DNA from: Escherichia phage TR3
DNA: 44,747 nucleotides
Reading direction: 5' to 3' (one strand)
Sequence record: PP069512
A program made the position numbers and the translations under genes. The notes under the pieces were generated by a model. That model made no database searches. It saw only the letters and a list, made by a program, of their open reading frames with translations, and had not been told where the DNA came from. Of this stretch, positions 1-44,747 are shown piece by piece (position 1 is the first letter of the stretch; the number at the start of each line of letters is the position of its first letter).

Positions 1-1
1 A

Positions 2-322
2 GCTTCCGCTCGCCGTGTAATGCAGCGCCTTGTTGATAATACAACCCTGAGCTATGGCGAGTTGTTTACTCGTAACAACCCAGGTGTAACCCTGCGCTTT
101 ATGCAGGTCCTGGATAACTACGATGGTGCTGGCGGTAAAGCTGCGCTGGCGTTTGAAAAGGATCCGCTCAACATGAGCATCGAGATTCCGGAAGTTACAA
201 ACGTTTTACCTGGTCAGCCTCGTGATCTTCACTTCCGCTTCCCTGTAACCTCTAAGGCGACAGGTTTGATTTTATATCGCCCTCTTACAGTGGCAGCTAT
301 CAAAGGAATTACCTTTGCCTAA
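2..322 (+). CDS. major capsid protein, C-terminal segment (5' part lies at 44125..44747 if the genome is circular)
   Basis: Frame open from base 2 to TAA 320-322; leftover nt at window end (2) plus base 1 make one codon, so it joins in frame with the ORF starting at 44125; followed by a hairpin terminator. Confidence 0.55.
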   Translation, partial: ASARRVMQRLVDNTTLSYGELFTRNNPGVTLRFMQVLDNYDGAGGKAALAFEKDPLNMSIEIPEVTNVLPGQPRDLHFRFPVTSKATGLILYRPLTVAAIKGITFA

Positions 323-342
323 TAGCACTAAATGACAAAACA

Positions 343-368
343 ATACCACCGAAAGGTGGTATTTTTGT
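343..368 (+). terminator. intrinsic terminator after capsid gene
   Basis: Hairpin ATACCACC-GAAA-GGTGGTAT followed by TTTTTG. Confidence 0.6.
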
Positions 369-393
369 TTCCATCAAAACAATGGAGGCGAAA

Positions 394-990
394 ATGAAAA
401 TTGAAGAACTACTAACTCACGAAGAGCTAACATCAAGACTTGAATCAGATTCTGAAAGTCCCGTTATGACATGGAAAGTAAAGCCGGGAAATGATAGGTT
501 TACAAATGTATGGAATTCAAGGTACGCCGGAAAGGTTGCTGGAGGTGAATTCACTCCAAACCCAACATGCCCAGAAAGTAAGATGTGGAAGCTATGTATT
601 AAAGTTTCCGGGAAGAAGTTTCACGTTTCAATGCATAAGTTAAAGTGGTTTTATCATCACAGGAGTTGGCCGACAGGTGAGATAGATCACATTGATGGTA
701 ACTCATTAAACAATAGGGTGGAAAACCTAAGGGTTGTTACTCGAAGTGAGAACATGATGAATACGAGCCTATACAAAAGGAACAAGAGTGGATTTAAAGG
801 TGTTAGCTACGATAAATCAAGGGTGAAGTGGAAAGCCCAGATACAAAAGGATTGCGGAGATGTAAGGATGGCTAAAAGGTTTGACACAATTGAAGAGGCT
901 AAGGAGTGTTACGACAGTTGGTGTAAAGAAATATTCGGCGAGTACGGAAACGCCAATGGGGTTCACGAAGGCGATTGTTTAGTGCTATAA
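394..990 (+). CDS. HNH homing endonuclease with AP2-like DNA-binding domain
   Basis: HNH motif HIDGNSLNNRVENLRVVTRSEN; AP2-like segment SGFKGVSYDKSRVKWKAQI; RBS GGAGG 5 nt before ATG 394 (track ORF starts at 382, no RBS). Confidence 0.85.
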   Translation: MKIEELLTHEELTSRLESDSESPVMTWKVKPGNDRFTNVWNSRYAGKVAGGEFTPNPTCPESKMWKLCIKVSGKKFHVSMHKLKWFYHHRSWPTGEIDHIDGNSLNNRVENLRVVTRSENMMNTSLYKRNKSGFKGVSYDKSRVKWKAQIQKDCGDVRMAKRFDTIEEAKECYDSWCKEIFGEYGNANGVHEGDCLVL

Positions 991-1020
991 TCAATCATCA
1001 ATTAATAAAAGGAGCAAGTA

Positions 1021-1266
1021 ATGATTAAGTTAGAACACACTGGCGCGTGCATGATTGTTTATAAAGGTGCTAAATACTTACCTGGCGACACAATTGAAGC
1101 AAGTGAGCTTTGTGATGGACTGAAACGCCTGATTGCTGAAGGTAAACTCACCATTGAAGGTGACTACAAGGCAACTAAAGAAGTGGCGCAAGAAATCAAC
1201 AGTCAGAAAAAACGCAAAGAACCAAAGACCATCTCTGAAGCCGAGACTGGCAACGAGTACAAATAA
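1021..1266 (+). CDS. hypothetical protein (81 aa)
   Basis: RBS AAGGAG before ATG; followed by terminator. Confidence 0.6.
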   Translation: MIKLEHTGACMIVYKGAKYLPGDTIEASELCDGLKRLIAEGKLTIEGDYKATKEVAQEINSQKKRKEPKTISEAETGNEYK

Positions 1267-1272
1267 CAAAAT

Positions 1273-1296
1273 GGGCGCTTCGGCGTCCGTTTTTGT
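1273..1296 (+). terminator. intrinsic terminator
   Basis: GGGCGC-TTCG-GCGTCC hairpin (one G-U pair) then TTTTTGT. Confidence 0.55.
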
Positions 1297-1307
1297 ATGG
1301 AGGTAAT

Positions 1308-1703
1308 ATGAACGAACAAGCATTAGCATTCATGAGGTCATTAGTTCCTGCCCTTAAGAATGTTTCTGATGAAACACTTGACGTATGGCTTGAGCTAGCC
1401 AAGCTTTACATCTGTACCAGTAAGTTTGGTGATGATGCTTACAAGGCACTGGCACTGTACACTATGCACATTGCCTTTCTTGATGGTGCACTTAAGCAGA
1501 ATGAGTCTTTGGATGATTACGGTAAGAAGGTGGCAAGTTACTCACTGAGTGGTGAGTTCTCTATCAGCTATGAATCAACGTCTCAATCACAATCAGCACT
1601 GACTTCCACCCCGTGGGGTCGTCTGTACTGGAACCTTCTGCGTAAGAAAGGTGGTGGCTTTGGATTGGTTACGTCCGGTGGGCGTGGGTGCGGTTGCCGA
1701 TGA
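1308..1703 (+). CDS. putative head-tail connector protein
   Basis: ATG 1308 with RBS GGAGG (track start 1293 lacks RBS); first of four translationally coupled genes between capsid and major tail protein. Confidence 0.55.
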   Translation: MNEQALAFMRSLVPALKNVSDETLDVWLELAKLYICTSKFGDDAYKALALYTMHIAFLDGALKQNESLDDYGKKVASYSLSGEFSISYESTSQSQSALTSTPWGRLYWNLLRKKGGGFGLVTSGGRGCGCR

Positions 1704-2071
1704 ATTACTCTCAAATCGAATCATTAATGCGAACGGGAATCAATATCTTTAGTGATGGCGATGGTACGTTTACCATGGAAACTGGTAAAGGTGGGGTGGA
1801 GATTGTCGATGGTGTCGAGGTTCCTGTATCTGGCGGCACTGCATTAATCAAGGGGCTGGTGAGGGAGATTAAAACCAGAGATATTGATGGTGAGTATATT
1901 CAGTTTGGCGATAAGCGTGGAATCTTCACTTCCGAAGTCCCAATCTTACAGGGCTACAGGATTATTGTGGACGATGAAACTTACACTGTAGTCGACCCGA
2001 GACCAGTGAAACCAACAGGTACTGTAGTCGCATACAGGCCAATTCTGAGGAGGATTGCTGCTTATGGCTAA
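1700..2071 (+). CDS. putative head-tail joining protein
   Basis: ATG 1700 overlaps upstream stop (ATGA); track start at 1688 is GTG. Confidence 0.55.
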   Translation: MNYSQIESLMRTGINIFSDGDGTFTMETGKGGVEIVDGVEVPVSGGTALIKGLVREIKTRDIDGEYIQFGDKRGIFTSEVPILQGYRIIVDDETYTVVDPRPVKPTGTVVAYRPILRRIAAYG

Positions 2072-10034: not shown

Positions 10035-10593
10035 AATTAAATTGGGCTTATCTCTTGGCAGGAAGTACGGAAAGATTCATGAACTTTGCGTTGAGTCAGT
10101 CCCTGAGGCGTTAAGGGCATTATCTGTGAACATTCCAGCATTCAAAGAGTTTATGCAGAGCCATGTCGGGCAGAATACCAGGTTTGCAATCTTCGCGGAC
10201 GGCAAGAACCTTAACGAACATCGCATTAAAGACTTTAAGGCCGTAAAGGAGATTCGCATCATGCCAATCCCTCAGGGCCGAAAGAGTGGTGGGCTGTTCC
10301 AGACTGTTTTGGGGGCCGCACTAATTGGTGCTAGCTTCTTCTTTACTGGTGGTATTGCAACGGCTGTTCTTGGTGCTGGCATTTCACTTGCTGCTGGCGG
10401 TATTGCTCAGTTGCTTTCACCGCAGGCAACGGGACTTAGAAACCAGGAGTCCGCACAAAACAGGGCTTCATATGCATTTGGCTCTGCGGTTAACACCGTC
10501 GCGGCTGGTTATCCAGTATGCCTACCTTATGGCTACCGAAGCGTTGGCGGCTCTGTATTTAGCGCCGGCAGTTACGCTCAAGATATTGCATAA
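10018..10593 (+). CDS. tail assembly protein (lambda gpI-like)
   Basis: ATG 10018 with RBS AAGGAG; overlaps K-like gene as in lambda; Gly/Ala-rich hydrophobic C-terminus. Confidence 0.65.
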   Translation: MQRLIKIKLGLSLGRKYGKIHELCVESVPEALRALSVNIPAFKEFMQSHVGQNTRFAIFADGKNLNEHRIKDFKAVKEIRIMPIPQGRKSGGLFQTVLGAALIGASFFFTGGIATAVLGAGISLAAGGIAQLLSPQATGLRNQESAQNRASYAFGSAVNTVAAGYPVCLPYGYRSVGGSVFSAGSYAQDIA

Positions 10594-17494: not shown

Positions 17495-18460
17495 ATGAGC
17501 TTTAAAGTTTTTACGCGAGAGGAGCTAAGCAACGAGGCTTACCACGCTGAAACTGAACACATCTCAGGTAGCTCGCTTGTCGAGATTATCCAGGGATCAC
17601 CAGCCAAGTGGAAGTTTAAGCAGCGCAACAATGATAGCAAGGCGCTTAAGTTCGGCACGCTAAGCCACACGATGATTTTAGAGCAAGATGTATTCGAAAA
17701 AGAATACCTTCGCGCAACAGACCTTGACTCGATTGAAGGCTTAATTACAAGTCAGTCTGGATTATCATCAGCACTTAAAAAAGTTGGTGTAGCTGGCACG
17801 TCAGGTAAGGGGTATAGCGAGCTTATAGAGATGATGTATCGATCTGGTGAGGATTGGCCCGTTGGATGGTTAATTGAGCAGCAGGAGAGCGCCCAGGCGC
17901 TTGCGGATGGTAAGGAGCTAGTTAGCGCAGTAGACTATGACAAGGTTGTAGCGATGCGTGAGGTCCTCTGCAACATTCCGGCGTATAATGCGATCGTGAA
18001 CAGTAAGACGGCGCAGAAAGAGTTATCGATCTTCGGTGAGATTCTAGGAGTCGGCGTTAAGATTCGAATTGACCACGTTGATGTTGTTGATGGAGCAGTT
18101 CGGATCACAGATTACAAAACGACAGCAGACGCAAGCCCGGAAGGATTCGGTAAGTCAGCATTCAACCACGGATACCTTGCAAAAATGGCACTTCAGCGTG
18201 ATCTGTTTGTGAAAGCATTCAACGAGAAGCGCAAGGTTGTTGTGGGGTTGCTGGCACAGGAGAAGGTGGAGCCATACTTACCAATGCTGTACACCCTAAC
18301 TGACGAACAGCTTCGCATTGGTCGTCTCCAGTATCTTGAGGCACTTGCCACTTACAAGAAGTGCAAGGAGCTAGATATCTGGCCTGGGTACTCGAACGGC
18401 ATAACAGAGCAAGAACTACTAGTCCCTGAGTGGGCTCTAAAGCAATACAAAGAAATCTAA
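17495..18460 (+). CDS. PD-(D/E)XK exonuclease (RecB/RecE-like)
   Basis: Motifs RIDHVD ... ITDYKTT (D...D/E-x-K); adjacent to Erf-type annealing protein. Confidence 0.7.
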   Translation: MSFKVFTREELSNEAYHAETEHISGSSLVEIIQGSPAKWKFKQRNNDSKALKFGTLSHTMILEQDVFEKEYLRATDLDSIEGLITSQSGLSSALKKVGVAGTSGKGYSELIEMMYRSGEDWPVGWLIEQQESAQALADGKELVSAVDYDKVVAMREVLCNIPAYNAIVNSKTAQKELSIFGEILGVGVKIRIDHVDVVDGAVRITDYKTTADASPEGFGKSAFNHGYLAKMALQRDLFVKAFNEKRKVVVGLLAQEKVEPYLPMLYTLTDEQLRIGRLQYLEALATYKKCKELDIWPGYSNGITEQELLVPEWALKQYKEI

Positions 18461-18504
18461 ACAGCACGAATTGCTAAAACAAAACGGGATGACTTAGGTA
18501 TAGT
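18461..18504 (+). promoter_or_regulatory. phage promoter box (ACAGCACGAATTGCTA, 22-bp spacer, TATAGT)
   Basis: Box 18461-18476; -10-like 18499-18504. Confidence 0.5.
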
Positions 18505-18533
18505 TATCCAATCAACAACGAACGAGGTTAAAG

Positions 18534-19184
18534 ATGCAAATTTCAGAATTATGCAAATCAATTTTAAAAGCGCTTCACACTGCTAAATCGCTATTTGCGA
18601 AGGCTGAAAAGTCTAAGCAGAACTCTCACTTAAAGAATAAATACGCTACCTTAGAAGACGTTTTGGCGGCTGTTGAGCCTGGTTTATATGAGTGTGGTTT
18701 GGTGATGTTCCAGAGTGTGATTGATGACGAACAAACAAATCGCATGAAGGTCGAGACAAAGCTGTTTCATGTTGAATCTGGAGAGTGGGTAAGCTTCTTA
18801 ATGATAGTCCCAATCAGCAAGAATGATGCACAAGGTTACGGATCAGCTTTAACATACGCTCGTCGCTACGGTATCACAGCTGCCTTGGGTCTTAGCCAGG
18901 CTGATGATGACGGAAATCTTGCAGCCAAAGGCGTTAAGGATTTCAAGCGAGAGCTAGAGAAATGCAATACTCTTGATGAACTTCGTAACGTCTGGAAAGA
19001 GGCTAAGCAGTCACTTGATGCGGCTGGATGGAAGGTGTTTGAGCCTTACATTATCGAGCGAAAAGCAGAGATTGAGGCAAATGCAGCAACTGGCTTCAAC
19101 CCAGCAACACCAAAGAAAGTTGCAGAAAAAAGTAGTACTACTGAAAAGATTGAAGTAGAATCACAACAAATCGACACATTCTAA
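18534..19184 (+). CDS. ERF-family single-strand annealing protein
   Basis: Motif GSALTYARRYG typical of Erf family; RBS GAGGT. Confidence 0.8.
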   Translation: MQISELCKSILKALHTAKSLFAKAEKSKQNSHLKNKYATLEDVLAAVEPGLYECGLVMFQSVIDDEQTNRMKVETKLFHVESGEWVSFLMIVPISKNDAQGYGSALTYARRYGITAALGLSQADDDGNLAAKGVKDFKRELEKCNTLDELRNVWKEAKQSLDAAGWKVFEPYIIERKAEIEANAATGFNPATPKKVAEKSSTTEKIEVESQQIDTF

Positions 19185-37979: not shown

Positions 37980-38055
37980 GTTCTGCTGGCGTAACAGGAT
38001 AACGCAAAGACCTCCTAAGTCTTAGTTGCTGGTTCGAGTCCAGCGCGGAACACCA
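37980..38055 (+). tRNA. tRNA-Arg (anticodon CCU), CCA encoded
   Basis: Hand-folded cloverleaf: acceptor GTTCTGC/GCGGAAC (one G-U), D stem GCGT/ACGC, anticodon stem AAGAC/GTCTT with loop CU-CCU-AA, T stem GCTGG/CCAGC with loop TTCGAGT, discriminator A + CCA. Confidence 0.85.
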
Positions 38056-38376: not shown

Positions 38377-38901
38377 ATGAAAGACGAAAACTTCACCAGC
38401 CAGGCGCAAGAAAAGATTCGCTCTGGCAACTTCAAAGCCATGTACAACAAAAAGTATTCTGACATTACAACTCTGTCCAAAAACCGAATAATGACCCCAG
38501 AGCAGCTATTCGACCTGGCCGTGAAATACTTCTCATGGGCTGAGAGCCAGGCAATCAAGGCAATTGAGACAGCCAGCTTCCAGGGTGTCGTAACCGAGAA
38601 TCTGGTGCACAAGCCACGAGTCTTCACACTAACAGGATTCTGCCTTTACTGCGGTGTTACCCATAGCGCAATAGAGAAATGGAGGAAGTCGGAGGGTTAT
38701 GACGAGGTAATTGCATTCATTGATTCCGTGATTCGCGAGCAGAAGTATCAGCTGGCAGCGTCTGGCATTGTTAACCCTGGCATGATTTCCAAAGAACTTG
38801 GCATCGATAAGCCGCAGGAGATTACTATAAGCAATAACTCTTCAGCTAACGACGTTGGCACGATGAAGGAAGCGCTGGAGTCTGTGATTAGTAAGCTGTA
38901 G
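38377..38901 (+). CDS. terminase small subunit (putative)
   Basis: 174 aa immediately upstream of HNH and terminase large subunit; RBS AAAGGAGG. Confidence 0.55.
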   Translation: MKDENFTSQAQEKIRSGNFKAMYNKKYSDITTLSKNRIMTPEQLFDLAVKYFSWAESQAIKAIETASFQGVVTENLVHKPRVFTLTGFCLYCGVTHSAIEKWRKSEGYDEVIAFIDSVIREQKYQLAASGIVNPGMISKELGIDKPQEITISNNSSANDVGTMKEALESVISKL

Positions 38902-38941
38902 CACTTTTTGTTAAAAGAAGAGGCCCAATCAATGAGATAAT
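38899..38941 (+). promoter_or_regulatory. phage promoter box (TAGCACTTT-TTGTTA, 22-bp spacer, GATAAT)
   Basis: TAG of box is TerS stop; -10-like sits in loop of GGCCCA/TGGGCC inverted repeat. Confidence 0.5.
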
Positions 38942-38969
38942 GGGCCCAACAAACTAGCGAGGTGATCAT

Positions 38970-39476
38970 ATGAATTGGCATGATATTTTTGAATATAGAG
39001 ACGGGCTTTTAATAAGAAAGGTAAAAGTAGCAAATGTATCAAAGGTTGGAGAGGTGGCCGGAAGAGTTGATAAATTTGGCTATGTGATACTAAAGTATAG
39101 ACAAAAAGCATACAGGTGTCACAGGGTGGTGTGGGAGATGCACAATGGAGCAATCCCTAAAGGCATGCACATAGATCACATAAACCAAAATAGAAGTGAC
39201 AATAGAATAGAGAACTTAAGGTTAGTAAGCAATAAAGAGAACTCAAATAACAGATCACTATCATCAAGAAATAAAAGCGGAATAAACGGTGTAAGCTGGT
39301 GCAAAAGAGAGAATAGATGGCTTGTTCAGGCTAGAGAGTTTGGTAAAACAGTCTTCATATGCTACAAGGACACTATAGAGGAGGCTGCATTGGCAAGGTC
39401 GCAGTATGACAAATTGAACGGATATCATGAAAATCATGGCTCTGAAAATAAAGGCTACCTAAATACGAGAGCGTAA
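38970..39476 (+). CDS. HNH homing endonuclease with AP2-like domain (paralog of 394..990)
   Basis: HNH motif HIDHINQNRSDNRIENLRLVSNKEN; AP2-like SGINGVSWCKRENRWLVQ; shared DTIEEA segment with 394..990; RBS GAGGTG. Confidence 0.85.
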   Translation: MNWHDIFEYRDGLLIRKVKVANVSKVGEVAGRVDKFGYVILKYRQKAYRCHRVVWEMHNGAIPKGMHIDHINQNRSDNRIENLRLVSNKENSNNRSLSSRNKSGINGVSWCKRENRWLVQAREFGKTVFICYKDTIEEAALARSQYDKLNGYHENHGSENKGYLNTRA

Positions 39477-39478
39477 CA

Positions 39479-41050
39479 ATGAGTGAATTAATAGTCTGGG
39501 ATGAACTGACTCACGCTGAAAAGATGGCTATAAAGGCAATCTCTGAGCATAGTTTCGAAGGGTTCTTGCGGTGCTTCTTTCAGATAACGCAAGGCGAGAG
39601 ATTCAAAATGAATTGGCATGCTAAATACCTTTGTCGTGTCATAGATGAGATTCTTGATGGTAAGAGAAAGGATACCATCATAAACGTAGCTCCTGGATCA
39701 GCCAAAACCGAGCTCTTTAGTATACATTTCCCTGTATATAGCATGATCAAGATTAAGAAGGTTAGAAATCTTAGTTTGTCGTTCTCTGACTCATTGGTTA
39801 AGCGTAACTCAAAGCGTGTGCGCGACCTGATTAAGTCAAAGGAGTTTCAGGAACTTTGGCCTTGCTCATTTGGGACTTGCAGGGATGATGAGATTCAGGT
39901 TCTAGATGAAGATGGAAAGGTGAGGTTTGAATCGATATCTAAGGCAATGGCTGGACAGGTGACTGGTTCGCGTGGTGGTTACATGACCGATGATTACAGT
40001 GGATGCATAATGCTTGATGACCCGCTGAAGCCAGATGATGCGCTTAGTAATGTAAGGAGGGAGGCTGTTAATATGCTTCTCAAGAACACAATTCGCTCAC
40101 GAAGGGCGAGTTCAGTTAAGGGAAAAGAGACTCCAATATTAGCCGTTCAGCAAAGGCTTCATGTTCTTGACACTAGTCACTTCATGGAGTCCGGGCAGAT
40201 GGGGATAAAATTCGACGTAGTTAAAATTCCAGCAATAGTCACGGAAGAATACGCCGACACGCTTCCTGAATGGATTAGGCAGCAGTTTATAGATGACGTT
40301 CTTTCTTCGCCATTTGTAGAGCGCGATGGGGTTAAGTATTACAGCTACTTCCCAGCAAAGGAATCAATAGAAGACTTGATAGCCATGCGTGATGCTGATC
40401 CTTACACATTCCTTAGTCAATATGCTCAGGAGCCTGTAGCTCTAGGTGGCAACCTGATTAACGTAGACTGGCTCCAGCGCATTAGTGACACCCTGCGACC
40501 GCCAGCTAAGTACGATTACAGGTTCATGACGCTTGATACCGCGATGACCACTAAAAGCTACAGTGACTTTAGTGTACTGCAACTCTGGGGCTATAAGGAT
40601 GGCAAGATTTACCTGTTAGACCAGCGACGTGGTAAATGGGAGGCGCCAGAGCTAGAGGCAGAGCTATTAGACTTCGAGAGGATGGCAAGGGCATCCAATC
40701 AGACAGATGGTATCCTTCGTAAAATCATCATCGAGAAGAAAGCATCTGGTATAGGTCTGATTCAATCAGCAGGAAGGGTTATGCGAACGCCTATCGAGCC
40801 ATACGTGCCAGATAACGACAAGCTGACTCGCGTAATGAGTGCACTTCCTCAGATTAAGGCTGGCAACGTTATCCTGCCGGAGTCAGCAAATTGGCTTAAC
40901 GGATTGCTAACAGAGATTGCAGCATTTACGGCAGATGATTCTCACTCGCACGATGACCAGATAGACTGTTTGACGATGGCTGTCAACCTGGTACTGAACA
41001 TCGCAGAAGACCCTAAAGCGAGAATGATGCGATTAGCAGGAATTAAATAA
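39479..41050 (+). CDS. terminase large subunit
   Basis: 523 aa; ATPase-type N-terminal region (VAPGSAKTE) and C-terminal nuclease-type region; position before portal. Confidence 0.8.
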   Translation: MSELIVWDELTHAEKMAIKAISEHSFEGFLRCFFQITQGERFKMNWHAKYLCRVIDEILDGKRKDTIINVAPGSAKTELFSIHFPVYSMIKIKKVRNLSLSFSDSLVKRNSKRVRDLIKSKEFQELWPCSFGTCRDDEIQVLDEDGKVRFESISKAMAGQVTGSRGGYMTDDYSGCIMLDDPLKPDDALSNVRREAVNMLLKNTIRSRRASSVKGKETPILAVQQRLHVLDTSHFMESGQMGIKFDVVKIPAIVTEEYADTLPEWIRQQFIDDVLSSPFVERDGVKYYSYFPAKESIEDLIAMRDADPYTFLSQYAQEPVALGGNLINVDWLQRISDTLRPPAKYDYRFMTLDTAMTTKSYSDFSVLQLWGYKDGKIYLLDQRRGKWEAPELEAELLDFERMARASNQTDGILRKIIIEKKASGIGLIQSAGRVMRTPIEPYVPDNDKLTRVMSALPQIKAGNVILPESANWLNGLLTEIAAFTADDSHSHDDQIDCLTMAVNLVLNIAEDPKARMMRLAGIK

Positions 41051-41062
41051 GCGTGATAAACT

Positions 41063-41086
41063 AGCCTCTTAAATGGGGCTTTTTTA
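41063..41086 (+). terminator. intrinsic terminator / attenuator
   Basis: AGCCTC-TTAAAT-GGGGCT hairpin then TTTTTTATTGGAG. Confidence 0.5.
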
Positions 41087-41099
41087 TTGGAGCAAGAAA

Positions 41100-42374
41100 A
41101 TGGTAAAAGCAGATTCATACGCCACGCAGTTCCTGGGTGGAACTAGTGATGGTAGCGAGATTTACGGGCAATTCGGCAACACTTACCTTGCGCCACCATT
41201 CGCCGATTCACTTTACGTGTCTAACTCACTGGTTCGCCGCATCGTCGATACCATCCCAGAGACAGCAATCGCCGCAGGTTTCCATATTGATGGCATTGAT
41301 AACGAGGGTGAATTCTGGTCAAGGTGGGATTACCTAAAGGTCAACGAGTCAATCTCTGACGCATGGTCATGGGCGAGGTTGTTCGGCGGCTCAGCTATTG
41401 TGGCTATCGTTAAGGATAATCGTGCGCTAACTAGTCCGGTACGTGAAGGTGCTGAACTTGAATCGCTTCGAGTATACGATCGCAGTCAGGTGAGGGTGCA
41501 AGCGAAGGAGGAGAATCCTCGCAATGTTCGATTTGGAAAACCACTAACGTACCGCATAACACCTGAAGGTAGCTCCACGTTTTATGATGTGCATTACTCT
41601 CGAGTTCACATTATGGATGGAGAGAAGATTCCTAGCTCATTGCGTCTCGGCAATGATGGGTGGGGTGCTAGCGTTCTGGTTCCTGACCTACTGGAGGCAA
41701 TCAAGGATTATCAGACGTGCGAGAAACTGGCAACCCAGTTATTGCGCCGTAAGCAACAGGCGGTATGGAAGGCGAAGGGGCTTGCTGAATTGTGTGACGA
41801 CGCAGAAGGTTTTGGTGCGGCAAGGTTAAGGCTGGCTCAGGTTGATGATAATTCCGGCGTTGGTCGCGCGATTGGTATTGATGCAGAGTCTGAAGAGTAC
41901 AGTGTTCTGAACTCGGATATTGGTGGGATTGATGGATTCCTGGATAAGAAATTCGACAGGATTGTTGCTCTGAGTGGTATTCATGAAATCATCCTCAAAG
42001 GCCGTAACGTTGGTGGTTTGTCATCAAGCCAAAACACAGCATTGGAGACATTCCATAAACTAATCGACCGCAAGAGAAATGAAGAATTACTCCCTGTTCT
42101 TGTTTTTTTAATCCCGTTCATCACAACCGAGCAGGAATGGTCAGTTGAGTTTAATCCGCTAGCTCAGGAATCGAAGAAGGACCGCGCTGAAATACTGAAG
42201 AATAACGTTGATTCAATCGCCACTCTCATCACTAACGGAGTAATGGACGCAGATGAAGCACGAGATACCTTGCGCGCATTAGCCCCTGAGGTTAAGATTG
42301 GTGAAGGTTCGATTGTAACTGAGCAGCCCGCACAAGAAGAATCACCAAAAGAGGAGATTGTAATTGAAAGCTAA
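41100..42374 (+). CDS. portal protein
   Basis: 424 aa directly after terminase; ATG 41100 with RBS GGAG (track start 41073 lies inside terminator hairpin). Confidence 0.75.
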   Translation: MVKADSYATQFLGGTSDGSEIYGQFGNTYLAPPFADSLYVSNSLVRRIVDTIPETAIAAGFHIDGIDNEGEFWSRWDYLKVNESISDAWSWARLFGGSAIVAIVKDNRALTSPVREGAELESLRVYDRSQVRVQAKEENPRNVRFGKPLTYRITPEGSSTFYDVHYSRVHIMDGEKIPSSLRLGNDGWGASVLVPDLLEAIKDYQTCEKLATQLLRRKQQAVWKAKGLAELCDDAEGFGAARLRLAQVDDNSGVGRAIGIDAESEEYSVLNSDIGGIDGFLDKKFDRIVALSGIHEIILKGRNVGGLSSSQNTALETFHKLIDRKRNEELLPVLVFLIPFITTEQEWSVEFNPLAQESKKDRAEILKNNVDSIATLITNGVMDADEARDTLRALAPEVKIGEGSIVTEQPAQEESPKEEIVIES

Positions 42375-43476
42375 AATTCGTTATGACAGTGCAAAAGTTA
42401 AAGCGCGATTTGACGAAAACGGATTCCTGGTAGATACACCTGTGGTTGCTCGCGTAGGCGTGCAATCATACTACCTGCCAGATGGCTCGGAACGACGCGA
42501 ATTTAGGCCAGCTTCAGAGGTCTTTAAAGCTGATTCTCTTGCAAGTTATCAGGGCAAGCCGATTACCTTAGGCCACGTGTTTGTTAACGTTGATAATGCC
42601 AAGCAGGTAGTTGTAGGCTCAGTGTCTGGCTCAGCAATGCGTCAGGATTCGAACGTGGTAGTTCCACTAACCGTTTACGACAAGGAATCAATCGAGAAAG
42701 CTAAATCTGGCATTGCCGCCGAGTTATCTGTAGGCTACTCGACTGTTGATGTTGAGTCTCCAGGTTGGGGGAGTAATGAGACTGGTGAATACAAGTTGGA
42801 TGGTGATTACGAGTCCCAAGATGAAATTCCACCTGACTGGGTTCGTTTTGATGCACTGCAAACTAACATTATTGTTAATCACGTTGCAATGGTATACAAA
42901 GGTCGCGCAGGTGTTGCAAAATTGAATATGGACGCAGAACAGGAAAACCCGTATACTGACAGCGTTGATTCTATTAAAGAGGATGTTAAAGAAATGGTTA
43001 AGATTAAACTGGATGGCGCCCAGGAGTTCGAAATCGCTCCAGAAGTTGCCGCACACATTGAAGCTATTAAAAAAGATGCAGTTGACGCTAAAACCAAAGC
43101 CGACTGCATTGAAGCTGAGCGTGATGCGCTGAAGGCTAAAGTAGACGCGATGCCTGCTGAAATCGAGAAAGCCGTTAAAGCTGCTAAAGCCGACGCTGAA
43201 GCACTTGCCGCTCTGGTTACTGTAGCCGCAGAGGTTGGAATTAAGACTGATGGTCTGGATGCTAAAGGCATCAAAGTAGCTTACGTTAAAGAAGTTTCCG
43301 GCCTTGATGTTGCTGATAAATCCGACGCATACATCGACGCAGCGTTCGACATTGCCAAGGATTCTGATAAAATGGCTGAAGTTCGTAAAGCTACCGTAGC
43401 TTCCGACAAATCTGACAAAGCTGACGAACCTAAGAAATTAGACCCACGTGCTCGTCTGGCTAAAATTAAAAAGTAA
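42364..43476 (+). CDS. putative head maturation protease / scaffolding protein
   Basis: TTG start with strong RBS AAAGAGGAG 7 nt upstream, overlapping portal end; Ala/Lys/Glu/Asp-rich coiled-coil C-terminal half. Confidence 0.5.
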   Translation: MKAKIRYDSAKVKARFDENGFLVDTPVVARVGVQSYYLPDGSERREFRPASEVFKADSLASYQGKPITLGHVFVNVDNAKQVVVGSVSGSAMRQDSNVVVPLTVYDKESIEKAKSGIAAELSVGYSTVDVESPGWGSNETGEYKLDGDYESQDEIPPDWVRFDALQTNIIVNHVAMVYKGRAGVAKLNMDAEQENPYTDSVDSIKEDVKEMVKIKLDGAQEFEIAPEVAAHIEAIKKDAVDAKTKADCIEAERDALKAKVDAMPAEIEKAVKAAKADAEALAALVTVAAEVGIKTDGLDAKGIKVAYVKEVSGLDVADKSDAYIDAAFDIAKDSDKMAEVRKATVASDKSDKADEPKKLDPRARLAKIKK

Positions 43477-43487
43477 GGAGATAGATA

Positions 43488-43982
43488 ATGGCAATTCGTT
43501 CTGTAGCTCTGGCAGGTATGGTAGCTGATACTTCCCTGTATAATATCGATGGTGCTTGTGTGGTTGGTGGTACTGCTGCCACTAGAATCCCGGTTGGAAC
43601 ATTCGTAGGTGTTAGCACCGCTCAGCCAGTAGATGGTCACAAGGTTGTTGCCCTTCCGGCTATATCAGGAACTGCAATTAAACCTTACGGCGTTGTTGTT
43701 AAATCTCATTATGAGACTCCAGATGGTCAGGCTCGCGGCCTTGAGGCAGTTAACGTAATGACTTCTGGTCGTATTTGGGTTCGCACTACTCTTGCAGCTG
43801 CTCCGGCATTTGGTGACAAGGTTTTCGTAAATGAAAGTGGCGTTGTTGCCGCTAAAGTGGGACGTTCTACCTGGGGAACTGGTTTCACATTTGCTGGTGG
43901 CTATGTATCAGCTAGTGAAAGCGTTGATGGCGCACTGGTTGAAGTTCAGCTGATTCAATCCGCAGACTCAACTGTGGCTTAA
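43488..43982 (+). CDS. putative head decoration / accessory capsid protein
   Basis: 164 aa with strong RBS AAGGAG between scaffold and capsid genes; followed by terminator. Confidence 0.45.
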   Translation: MAIRSVALAGMVADTSLYNIDGACVVGGTAATRIPVGTFVGVSTAQPVDGHKVVALPAISGTAIKPYGVVVKSHYETPDGQARGLEAVNVMTSGRIWVRTTLAAAPAFGDKVFVNESGVVAAKVGRSTWGTGFTFAGGYVSASESVDGALVEVQLIQSADSTVA

Positions 43983-44006
43983 CAAAATCTGAATGCACAA
44001 ATAAAC

Positions 44007-44030
44007 AACCTCCTTCGGGAGGTTTTTTTA
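44007..44030 (+). terminator. intrinsic terminator
   Basis: AACCTCC-TTCG-GGAGGTT hairpin then TTTTTTTAT. Confidence 0.7.
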
Positions 44031-44058
44031 TACCTTCCGCTTGGTCATGATAGAATCA

Positions 44059-44086
44059 TTGCGCGGTCCTCAAACTAGTGTATAAT
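44059..44086 (+). promoter_or_regulatory. candidate sigma70 promoter for capsid gene (TTGCGC-N16-TATAAT)
   Basis: Canonical spacing; about 40 nt upstream of capsid ATG. Confidence 0.45.
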
Positions 44087-44124
44087 TGACTCGTACATAC
44101 CTAACTGAAAAGGAATAAACAAGA

Positions 44125-44747
44125 ATGGCCATTAAATTTGATGCAGAACAAGCAAAAATCACCGCTCACCTAGAGCAAATGGGCGTAGATAAGGCTGATG
44201 CTGCTGGTATCTGGACCGTTAAGCAGTTAACCGCATCACTGAATCGCGCTTACGAAAAAGAATACGCAGACAACTCAGTTGTCAACATCTTCCCAGTAAC
44301 CAACGAAATCCCTGGTCACGCGAAATACTTCGAATACAATGAGTTCGATGGTGTTGGTATTGCTCAGATCATCGCTGATTACTCTGACGACCTGCCGATG
44401 GTTGATGCTTTCATGACCGAGAAGCAGGGTAAAGTATTCCGCTTCGGTAATGCGTTTATGATCTCAGTTGATGAGATTAAAGTTGGCGCTGCTACTGGTC
44501 AGTCACTGTCCGCTCGCAAACAGGCTTTGGCTTTTGAAGCTCACGACAACCTGCTTGATAAACTGGTATGGTCTGGCTCTGCACCTCACGGCATCGTAAG
44601 CGTATTTAACCAGCCGAACATCAACAACGTTGTTGCAACTCCAAACTGGAGCAATCCAATTAACGCGGTTAACGACGTTACCGCAATGATTGATGCTGTA
44701 GAAACCAGCACACAGGGCTTCCACCATGTAACTGACATTCTGCTGCC
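44125..44747 (+). CDS. major capsid protein, N-terminal part (3' end beyond window edge; continues in 2..322)
   Basis: Open frame from ATG 44125 to window end (207 codons); RBS AAAAGGAA; not in ORF track because no stop is reached. Confidence 0.6.
   Translation, partial: MAIKFDAEQAKITAHLEQMGVDKADAAGIWTVKQLTASLNRAYEKEYADNSVVNIFPVTNEIPGHAKYFEYNEFDGVGIAQIIADYSDDLPMVDAFMTEKQGKVFRFGNAFMISVDEIKVGAATGQSLSARKQALAFEAHDNLLDKLVWSGSAPHGIVSVFNQPNINNVVATPNWSNPINAVNDVTAMIDAVETSTQGFHHVTDILL

What the first reader, a model, noticed from the sequence alone, without database searches (positions are those of the whole stretch)
394..990. Two paralogous HNH-AP2 homing endonucleases flanking the packaging and capsid module
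Genes 394..990 and 38970..39476 share the same architecture (HNH motif followed by an AP2-like domain) and a near-identical DTIEEA segment. One is inserted between TerS and TerL, the other directly after the capsid gene. These are typical free-standing homing endonuclease insertion points, and HNH proteins next to terminase can also assist DNA packaging.
Basis: partly seen in the sequence, partly recalled or inferred. Interest (0 to 1): 0.45.

Follow-up and report, generated by a model that had tools for sequence, protein, structure and literature searches.

The report
Two free-standing HNH-AP2 homing endonuclease genes
A T1-like E. coli phage carries two selfish "homing endonuclease" gene cassettes, one between the two terminase genes and one after the capsid gene; they are ordinary members of a well-known family of mobile nuclease genes and are not needed for DNA packaging.

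Summary
ORFs 394..990 and 38970..39476 both encode an I-HmuI-like HNH nuclease domain followed by an AP2 DNA-binding domain. One lies between TerS and TerL, the other directly after the major capsid gene, which wraps around the window ends.

The window is a complete, circularly permuted genome of a Drexlerviridae (Christensenvirus) coliphage, about 99.9% identical to phage Rao1 over the regions compared. GenBank already annotates both genes there as "HNH homing endonuclease".

Comparative evidence supports mobile, free-standing homing endonuclease genes:
- Both sites have precise empty alleles in relatives.
- Occupancy is patchy.
- Orthologues at the same sites in divergent phages are more conserved than the flanking capsid or TerL genes.
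- Catalytic residues are intact, and the capsid-site gene shows purifying selection.
- The GC content of both genes is below that of their neighbours.
- A mosaic breakpoint lies about 120 nt from the capsid-site insertion.

The two genes are only about 35% identical, so they were acquired independently and are not a recent duplication. "DTIEEA" is the conserved AP2 helix motif of the whole family.

A packaging role is not supported. The phage packages by headful, the genes are unrelated to HK97 gp74, viable relatives lack the terminase-site gene, and one near-identical genome carries a nonsense allele. No nuclease activity was tested. Interest is low.

The parts
394..990 (+). HEG-A: HNH_3 + AP2 homing endonuclease ORF (198 aa)
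325..973 (+). HEG-A cassette: sequence present here but absent from the empty alleles of phages TR1 and IME542, where about 45 nt holding the capsid terminator GCCCTCTTCGGAGGGCTTTTTT sit instead
   Evidence: Alignment A1 and junction sequences. The left junction is right after the capsid stop (TAATA|G). The right junction is at ATTGTT, 974..979. The last 5 codons and the stop of HEG-A are read from the pre-existing promoter region of the downstream gene.
323..365 (+). Degenerate copy of the T1-like intergenic repeat (TAGCAC...), a hairpin at 342..363, and a -10-like TATTTT at 360..365. It lies 71 nt upstream of ATG 394.
   Evidence: The repeat family is described for phage TLS in PMC11447400.
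962..991 (+). Sigma-70-like promoter (TTCACG, 18-nt spacer, TG-TATAAT) for the downstream DUF7444 gene. It overlaps the 3' end of HEG-A.
   Evidence: 10 of 12 matches with a TG extension. The -10 element is shared with the empty alleles.
1..322 (+). 3' part of the major capsid gene. The gene wraps the window ends; its 5' part is 44125..44747.
   Evidence: Pfam Major_capside. The joined ORF is 945 nt / 315 aa.
44125..44747 (+). 5' part of the major capsid gene
   Evidence: Matches the TR2 and TR1 capsid annotation.
1021..1266 (+). DUF7444 gene. In empty-site relatives it directly follows the capsid gene.
   Evidence: Pfam DUF7444 E 2.2e-19.
38970..39476 (+). HEG-B: HNH_3 + AP2 homing endonuclease ORF (168 aa)
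38901..39460 (+). HEG-B cassette: sequence inserted into the 16-nt TerS-TerL spacer seen in phages SU57 and IMM-001
   Evidence: Alignment A2. The TerS stop is TAG in the five occupied genomes aligned and TAA in the two empty ones. The native spacer (A[A/T]ACGAG.G..TAACA) is kept just before the TerL ATG and supplies the last codons and the stop of HEG-B.
38899..38946 (+). Perfect copy of the T1-like repeat TAGCACTTTTTGTTAA, a hairpin GGCCCA/TGGGCC (38922..38946), and a -10-like GATAAT (38936..38941). It lies 71 nt upstream of ATG 38970.
   Evidence: The element is conserved, with the hairpin maintained, in the divergent orthologous locus L015.
38377..38901 (+). Small terminase subunit (P22 gp3 type)
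   Evidence: Pfam GP3_package E 1.7e-12
39479..41050 (+). Large terminase subunit. The true start is 2 nt after the HEG-B stop.
   Evidence: Pfam Terminase_6C. The N-terminus aligns with SU57, IMM-001 and BEK2 TerL starts.
17495..19184 (+). Phage recombination genes (PDDEXK exonuclease 17495..18460; ERF-family annealing protein 18534..19184) that could repair endonuclease-made breaks
   Evidence: Pfam DUF3799 E 3.5e-21 and ERF E 5e-27. Their role in homing is inferred.

Best explanation
Both genes are free-standing homing endonuclease genes (HEGs) of the HNH-AP2 family. Each is a self-contained cassette made of the phage group's standard intergenic repeat/promoter-leader plus the ORF. The two cassettes were acquired independently at two intergenic sites next to essential, conserved genes.

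Inferred mechanism:
1. When a phage carrying the gene and a related phage lacking it infect the same cell, the AP2 domain and the I-HmuI-like N-terminal region bind a long target in or near the empty site.
2. The HNH (beta-beta-alpha-metal) site nicks or cuts the DNA there.
3. The phage's own exonuclease, ERF annealing protein and SSB repair the break from the HEG-carrying genome. This copies the cassette and some flanking sequence into the recipient.
4. The carrier genome is immune because the insertion splits or alters the target.

Shown here: domain architecture, intact catalytic residues, exact insertion boundaries, presence/absence polymorphism, greater conservation of the HEG than of its flanks across divergent phages, purifying selection on HEG-A, and dispensability of HEG-B.

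Inferred only: cleavage, target position, nick versus double-strand cut, and current homing activity.
For: Architecture:
- HNH_3 is significant for both proteins.
- The D-H...N...N catalytic set is invariant or near-invariant across 59 homologues in each alignment.
- Both match PHROG 99 'HNH endonuclease'.

Empty sites:
- Capsid is followed directly by DUF7444 in TR1 and IME542. Of the 60 best-matching records of 227, 57 have an empty-length capsid-to-DUF7444 span; only TR2, Rao1 and CY1 are occupied.
- TerS abuts TerL in SU57, DTL and IMM-001. By my count from the spans, about 21 records are occupied, about 29 empty and about 10 hold a small unrelated ORF.

Variable HEG load in the genus: by GenBank annotation TR1 has 6 HNH genes, TR2 has 4 and Rao1 has 3; two were found in this window.

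Horizontal spread:
- In metagenome contig L011 the HEG-A orthologue (91% aa) sits at the same site. Its cassette is about 88% nt identical to the window, against about 75% for the capsid flank and about 60% downstream.
- In contig L015 the HEG-B orthologue is 68% aa identical, while the adjacent TerL N-terminus is only 52%.

Selection: HEG-A and its L011 orthologue differ at 50 synonymous and 18 non-synonymous codons.

Composition: GC is 40.7% and 38.1% for the two ORFs, against 45-48% for their neighbours and 43.8% for the genome.

Mosaic boundary: TR1 is about 100% identical to the window from about 36300 to about 200. It then switches to IME542-like sequence for the last 120 nt or so of the capsid gene, next to the HEG-A site.

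Not intron-encoded: Rfam finds no intron in the window.

Literature: HNH-AP2 is a described HEG family that clusters near terminase and capsid genes and marks recombination boundaries (PMC10448857).
Against: - No enzymatic or genetic test exists for these proteins.
- The target sites are unknown.
- No near-isogenic occupied/empty pair exists for the terminase site.
- TR1, the closest empty allele for the capsid site, is not a simple product of homing. Sequence downstream of the site stays about 75% identical for many kilobases, so the breakpoint could be an ordinary module boundary. By my rough estimate the chance of such a coincidence is about 0.04.
- One lineage has a nonsense allele of HEG-B, so at least that copy is decaying.
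Confidence: 0.8

Rival explanations
1. The terminase-adjacent gene (38970..39476) is a packaging cofactor like HK97 gp74, stimulating terminase cleavage of concatemers.
For: The gene sits inside the packaging module, and its stop codon is 2 nt before the TerL start. HNH proteins next to terminase genes help cos cleavage in HK97-like phages (summarised in PMC10448857, and PMC3592412). Several Drexlerviridae carry an HNH gene at this position.
Against: - HK97 gp74 belongs to a different Pfam family (PF01844) and has no detectable similarity to this protein (E 17).
- The CxxC/CxxH zinc site that defines that group is absent; cysteines are C50, C111 and C131 only (sequence).
- TerS is the P22 gp3 type, and TR1 was typed as a headful packager, so there is no cos site to cut.
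- About 29 related phage records have TerS directly followed by TerL.
- The site holds at least two HNH lineages only 44% identical to each other.
- A 43.9-kb near-identical genome has Gly60 changed to a stop codon in this gene, with TerS and TerL intact.
Confidence: 0.04
2. The genes are domesticated. They are retained because the nuclease or the AP2 DNA-binding activity benefits the phage, for example by excluding co-infecting relatives, degrading competitor or host DNA, or regulating transcription, and they no longer home.
For: HEG-A is under purifying selection. Both cassettes use the phage's own repeat/leader module at the canonical distance. The HEG-A insertion rebuilt the terminator and promoter between the capsid and DUF7444 genes. 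Domestication of HEG domains is documented in other phages (PMC10448857).
Against: Occupancy is patchy and each site has empty alleles in viable relatives, so neither gene is required. A nonsense allele of HEG-B exists. HEG-A is found in only 3 of 50,697 GenBank phage records at 60% identity or more. The presence of the same cassette in divergent backgrounds is what active spread predicts. Marker exclusion is in any case a by-product of homing.
Confidence: 0.1
3. The genes are inactive relics of past invasions, with no current nuclease activity.
For: The HEG life cycle predicts decay after fixation. One lineage shows a nonsense mutation in HEG-B. No activity data exist.
Against: In this window both ORFs are full length with all catalytic residues intact. 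HEG-A has 50 synonymous against 18 non-synonymous codon differences from its orthologue. Both models fold confidently.
Confidence: 0.06

Closest known systems
HNH-AP2 homing endonuclease family (Magnani et al. 2004, cited from my own knowledge; 'IPA-HNH' HEGs of Vibrio phage ICP1, Barth et al. 2023, PMC10448857)
   Same: N-terminal HNH plus C-terminal AP2 domain. Free-standing genes found near terminase and capsid genes, variably present among related phages, and located at boundaries of genetic exchange.
   Different: The ICP1 genes are too divergent for the Pfam HNH_3 profile, whereas these two match HNH_3 strongly. The host here is a T1-like coliphage. Nothing else differs in kind.
I-HmuI (Bacillus phage SPO1; PDB 1U3E)
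   Different: From my own knowledge of the structure, I-HmuI is encoded inside a group I intron and ends in a helical/HTH DNA-binding region. These genes are intergenic (no intron) and end in an AP2 domain.
Free-standing HEGs of phage T4 (Seg and Mob proteins; from my own knowledge)
   Same: Intergenic cassettes between essential genes, with their own expression signals. They are absent from close relatives and cause localized marker co-conversion in mixed infection.
   Different: The Seg proteins are GIY-YIG enzymes. MobA-E are HNH enzymes without an AP2 domain. Homing has been shown experimentally for several T4 genes but not for these two.
HK97 gp74-type packaging HNH proteins
   Same: A small phage HNH protein encoded next to terminase genes.
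   Different: Different HNH family (PF01844 with a zinc site), placed upstream of TerS beside a cos site, and described as a conserved part of the packaging module. All three features were tested here and none is met.

Membership tests
HNH-AP2 free-standing homing endonucleases | HNH (beta-beta-alpha-metal) nuclease domain with intact catalytic residues | tested here: met
   Pfam HNH_3 E 3e-13 and 2.3e-22. D98, H99, N107, N111 are invariant and N120 near-invariant in HEG-A. D69, H70, N82 are invariant and N78, N91 near-invariant in HEG-B.
HNH-AP2 free-standing homing endonucleases | C-terminal AP2/ERF-fold DNA-binding domain | tested here: met
HNH-AP2 free-standing homing endonucleases | Presence/absence polymorphism at a fixed site, with precise empty alleles in relatives | tested here: met
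HNH-AP2 free-standing homing endonucleases | Evidence of horizontal spread: the element is more conserved than its flanks in divergent genomes | tested here: met
   L011: cassette about 88% nt against flanks of about 75% and about 60%. L015: HEG 68% aa against TerL 52% aa.
HNH-AP2 free-standing homing endonucleases | Site-specific cleavage of the empty allele and super-Mendelian inheritance in crosses | not testable with these tools
   Needs enzyme assays and mixed infections.
I-HmuI-type intron-encoded HNH endonucleases | Gene located inside a self-splicing group I intron | tested here: not met
   Rfam finds only a tRNA in the window. Both genes are intergenic, and the flanking ORFs are intact.
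I-HmuI-type intron-encoded HNH endonucleases | N-terminal DNA-binding sheet plus HNH core resembling I-HmuI | tested here: met
HK97 gp74-type packaging HNH proteins | PF01844-type HNH domain with a CxxC/CxxH zinc site | tested here: not met
   gp74 matches PF01844. There is no similarity to HEG-B. Neither protein has a CxxC motif (sequences). The feature is defined in PMC3592412.
HK97 gp74-type packaging HNH proteins | cos-type packaging, with the gene beside the cos site upstream of TerS | tested here: not met
   The gene lies between TerS and TerL. TerS is the P22 gp3 type. The close relative TR1 was typed as a headful packager (PMC10450929).
HK97 gp74-type packaging HNH proteins | Conserved in related phages and required for growth | tested here: not met
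   Empty alleles in SU57, DTL, IMM-001 and others. Nonsense allele in GCA_050604465.1. Viability of that last phage is inferred, not shown.

The most novel reading that the evidence does not exclude
Recombination between HNH-AP2 paralogues at their conserved HNH motif may create hybrid endonucleases and rearrange T1-like phage genomes. Two metagenome contigs join TerS and the first 85 codons or so of HEG-B to the 3' half of a different HNH gene, followed by primase and a colinear replication module. This is the junction expected from an inversion between the oppositely oriented terminase-site and primase-site HEGs. If real, the HEG load of these phages (2 to 6 copies per genome) would drive gene-order change as well as local gene conversion.
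Probability: 0.15. Interest if true: 0.45.

Novelty: new member of a known kind. Interest (0 to 1): 0.2.

Why it matters
The practical value is limited.

- Genome comparison: these two cassettes explain part of the length and mosaic differences among otherwise near-identical coliphages (TR1, TR2, Rao1, CY1) that contaminate industrial E. coli fermentations. Gene content around the terminase and capsid genes should not be used naively for typing.
- Annotation: an HNH gene next to the terminase genes is not automatically a packaging factor.
- Experimental system: this phage and TR1 share an essentially identical head module (100% identity in most 100-nt bins) and differ in the capsid-site cassette. 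That gives a convenient natural pair for measuring homing and co-conversion by an HNH-AP2 enzyme. From my own knowledge, no member of this family has a mapped target in T1-like phages.

Tried and rejected
- Recent duplication: rejected. Global identity is 35%, and each gene is closer to orthologues elsewhere. In the HEG-A alignment, HEG-B is among the most distant members (31%).
- More copies in the window: phmmer with both proteins against all six-frame ORFs of 60 aa or more found only these two. The site of Rao1's third HEG is empty here (10587/10592).
- NCBIfam: no match.
- The roughly 100-nt extra sequence at the TerS-TerL junction of JulesPiccard and Sd1 as a scar of HEG loss: rejected. 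It encodes an unrelated small hydrophobic ORF of 31-37 aa.
- The shared TAGCAC at both left junctions as a transposon-like end or target: it is the 5' end of the known T1-like intergenic repeat (PMC11447400), present 14 times in the window. The empty alleles of both sites lack it, so it travels with the cassette and does not mark a landing pad.
- Locating the cleavage targets from occupied/empty sequence differences: too few independent occupied lineages to say anything.

Full report
**What the window is**

- The window is a complete, circularly permuted genome of an E. coli siphophage of Drexlerviridae, Braunvirinae, genus Christensenvirus.
- It is 99.9% identical to phage Rao1 over the regions compared. 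It is 100% identical to phage TR2 over window 38377..44747 (TerS to the window end) and over positions 1..1800.
- The major capsid gene runs across the window ends (44125..44747 + 1..322).
- In GenBank, Rao1 gp12 and gp18 are the same two genes and are already labelled "HNH homing endonuclease".

**The observation**

- Both ORFs are present at the stated coordinates.
- Pfam finds HNH_3 in both (E 3e-13 and 2.3e-22). It finds AP2 only below the gathering score (31.3 and 16 bits against 33.3).
- I built alignments of 59 homologues for each protein. AlphaFold2 models from them had pLDDT 88.3 and 90.1.
- The shared architecture is therefore confirmed: an I-HmuI-like HNH region followed by an AP2 domain.
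- The catalytic D-H...N...N residues are invariant or nearly so across homologues and are intact in both proteins.
- The two proteins align at 40% identity over 113 residues (E 8e-19).
- DTIEEA is shared exactly. It falls in the family consensus FxTxEEAxxAY, so it is a family motif and not evidence of recent duplication.

**Not a duplication**

- In a matrix of 13 HNH genes from this phage group (11 intact HNH-AP2-type genes from genomes and contigs of Christensenvirus and related T1-like phages, plus the two here), HEG-A and HEG-B are 35% identical globally. That is as low as any pair.
- Each has a same-site orthologue elsewhere: 91% for HEG-A (contig L011) and 68% for HEG-B (contig L015).
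- The family is very large. More than 2,700 phage records match each protein at E <= 1e-5, and both match PHROG 99.
- HEG-A is a rare lineage. Only three GenBank phage records carry it at 60% identity or more, and the next best match is 38.7%.

**Insertion sites**

Capsid site:
- In TR1 and IME542 the capsid stop is followed by a terminator (GCCCTCTTCGGAGGGCTTTTTT), a promoter, and the DUF7444 gene.
- In the window about 650 nt (325..973) replace the roughly 45 nt that hold that terminator.
- The last five codons and the stop of HEG-A are read from the old promoter region.
- Of the 60 best-matching records (of 227), 57 have an empty-length span. Only TR2, Rao1 and CY1 are occupied.

Terminase site:
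- In SU57 and IMM-001, TerS and TerL are 16 nt apart.
- In the window about 560 nt (38901..39460) are inserted right after the TerS stop codon.
- The native spacer is kept in front of the TerL ATG and supplies the end of the HEG-B ORF.
- By my count of spans, about 21 records are occupied, about 29 are empty, and about 10 carry a small hydrophobic ORF there instead.
- Occupied genomes hold at least two HNH-AP2 lineages that are only 44% identical to each other.
- By GenBank annotation, TR1 carries six HNH genes, TR2 four and Rao1 three. Two were found in the window.

**Evidence for mobility and function**

- In contig L011 the HEG-A cassette is about 88% nt identical to the window. The capsid flank is about 75% identical and the downstream flank about 60%.
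- In contig L015 the HEG-B orthologue is 68% aa identical, while the first 327 residues of TerL are 52% identical. An element that is more conserved than the essential genes beside it is what horizontal spread predicts.
- HEG-A differs from its L011 orthologue at 50 synonymous and 18 non-synonymous codons, which indicates purifying selection.
- Both ORFs have lower GC (40.7% and 38.1%) than their neighbours (45-48%).
- The phage encodes a PDDEXK exonuclease and an ERF annealing protein that could repair endonuclease-made breaks.
- No intron is detected.

**Mosaic boundary**

- TR1 is about 100% identical to the window from about 36300 through the whole head module to about position 200.
- It then becomes IME542-like for the last 120 nt or so of the capsid gene and lacks HEG-A. 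Downstream it is about 75% identical to the window.
- A recombination breakpoint this close to a HEG site fits the published pattern that nuclease genes mark boundaries of exchange between phages (PMC10448857).
- It is a single case, and TR1 is not a simple product of homing, so I treat it as suggestive only.

**Expression signals**

- Both cassettes begin, immediately after the upstream stop codon, with a copy of the T1-like intergenic repeat (aaATAGCACnnnTTGnTAAAA). The copy before HEG-B is a perfect match to the search pattern; the one before HEG-A is degenerate (three mismatches) and is not among the 14 matches counted below.
- The window has 14 matches to this pattern against 0.06 expected by chance.
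- The repeat lies 71-75 nt upstream of the start codon for most of these genes, and exactly 71 nt for both HEGs.
- The repeat was described for phage TLS, with unknown function (PMC11447400).
- The empty alleles lack it, so each HEG brings its own copy.

**Packaging hypothesis**

- HK97 gp74 belongs to PF01844 and has no similarity to HEG-B.
- The zinc-site motif of that group (PMC3592412) is absent from both proteins.
- TerS is of the P22 gp3 type, and TR1 was typed as a headful packager (PMC10450929).
- Many viable relatives lack the gene.
- A 43.9-kb contig in assembly GCA_050604465.1 is near-identical over the TerS-HEG-B stretch aligned and carries Gly60 changed to TGA in HEG-B, with TerS and TerL intact.
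- I rate a packaging role at about 4%.

**Verdict**

These are ordinary, already-annotated members of the HNH-AP2 homing endonuclease family. The comparative evidence for mobility is good, but there is no biochemical evidence. Novelty: new members of a known kind. Interest: 0.2.

Noticed in passing
window 3602, 15583(-), 16808(-), 18462, 22273, 23806, 26302, 27387(-), 28642, 29852, 33911(-), 34721(-), 36326, 38899; degenerate copy at 323: Intergenic repeat TAGCAC-N3-TTG-N-TAA (palindrome TAGCA-N5-TGCTA), with 14 matches against 0.06 expected. In most copies inspected a -10-like hexamer follows about 31 nt after TAGCAC, and some also have CATCGAAA. For most copies it lies 71-75 nt upstream of a start codon. 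The spacer often holds a GAAA-loop hairpin. It matches the 'direct repeat' reported for phage TLS (PMC11447400), whose function is unknown. Both HEG cassettes, and several HNH cassettes in TR1 and TR2, start with it.
   Followed up: partly
L013, L014, L018 (metagenome contigs ERZ27279256 k141_210142 and SRR11880839_236953), positions 31-2035: TerS is followed by an HNH gene whose first 85 codons or so match HEG-B (first 60 residues identical; the DNA including TerS is about 90% identical). Its 3' half is a different allele. Primase and a colinear replication/recombination module follow. This is either an inversion between oppositely oriented HEG paralogues or an assembly chimera at the conserved HNH motif.
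   Followed up: partly
L019 (GCA_050604465.1 contig JBOCVU010000031.1, labelled Streptomyces lividans); corresponds to window 39147 and 39168: A 43.9-kb contig in a Streptomyces assembly matches this coliphage closely over the TerS-HEG-B-TerL region fetched, so it is probably contamination. HEG-B carries G60 changed to a stop codon (GGA>TGA) plus H67Y, a natural knock-out allele.
   Followed up: partly
L016 526-621 (JulesPiccard); L017 597-710 (Sd1); equivalent to the window junction 38901/39479: In about 10 related phage records the TerS-TerL junction holds a small hydrophobic ORF of 31-37 aa in place of an HNH gene. The junction is therefore a general hot spot for insertions.
   Followed up: partly
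window 39479..39607: TerL is annotated 129 nt (43 codons) too short in Rao1, TR1, TR2 and FP (1443 nt). The ORF starts at 39479, 2 nt after the HEG-B stop. This N-terminus aligns with the TerL starts of SU57, IMM-001 and BEK2.
   Followed up: partly
window 10587..10592; also L008 (TR1) and L009 (TR2): The window is an empty site for a third HNH gene that Rao1 carries between tail-assembly protein I and the J-like tail fibre gene (Rao1 gp34). TR1 and TR2 have further HNH genes next to the primase, exonuclease, SSB and tape-measure genes.
   Followed up: yes
window about 200 (capsid gene) and about 36300: TR1 shares an essentially identical block with the window from about 36300 to about 200 (small genes upstream of TerS through most of the capsid gene; 100% in most 100-nt bins) and is 65-80% identical just beyond the capsid end of the block. 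TR1 is a mosaic whose right breakpoint lies about 120 nt from the HEG-A site.
   Followed up: partly
window 37980..38052: A single tRNA gene (Rfam 59.3 bits), annotated as tRNA-Arg(CCT) in TR1 and TR2.
   Followed up: no
L003 4161-4493 (SU57); L007 2728-3111 (BEK2); equivalent to window about 41050..41073: SU57 and BEK2 carry an extra small gene between TerL and the portal gene that the window lacks. This is another variable intergenic site in the head module.
   Followed up: no
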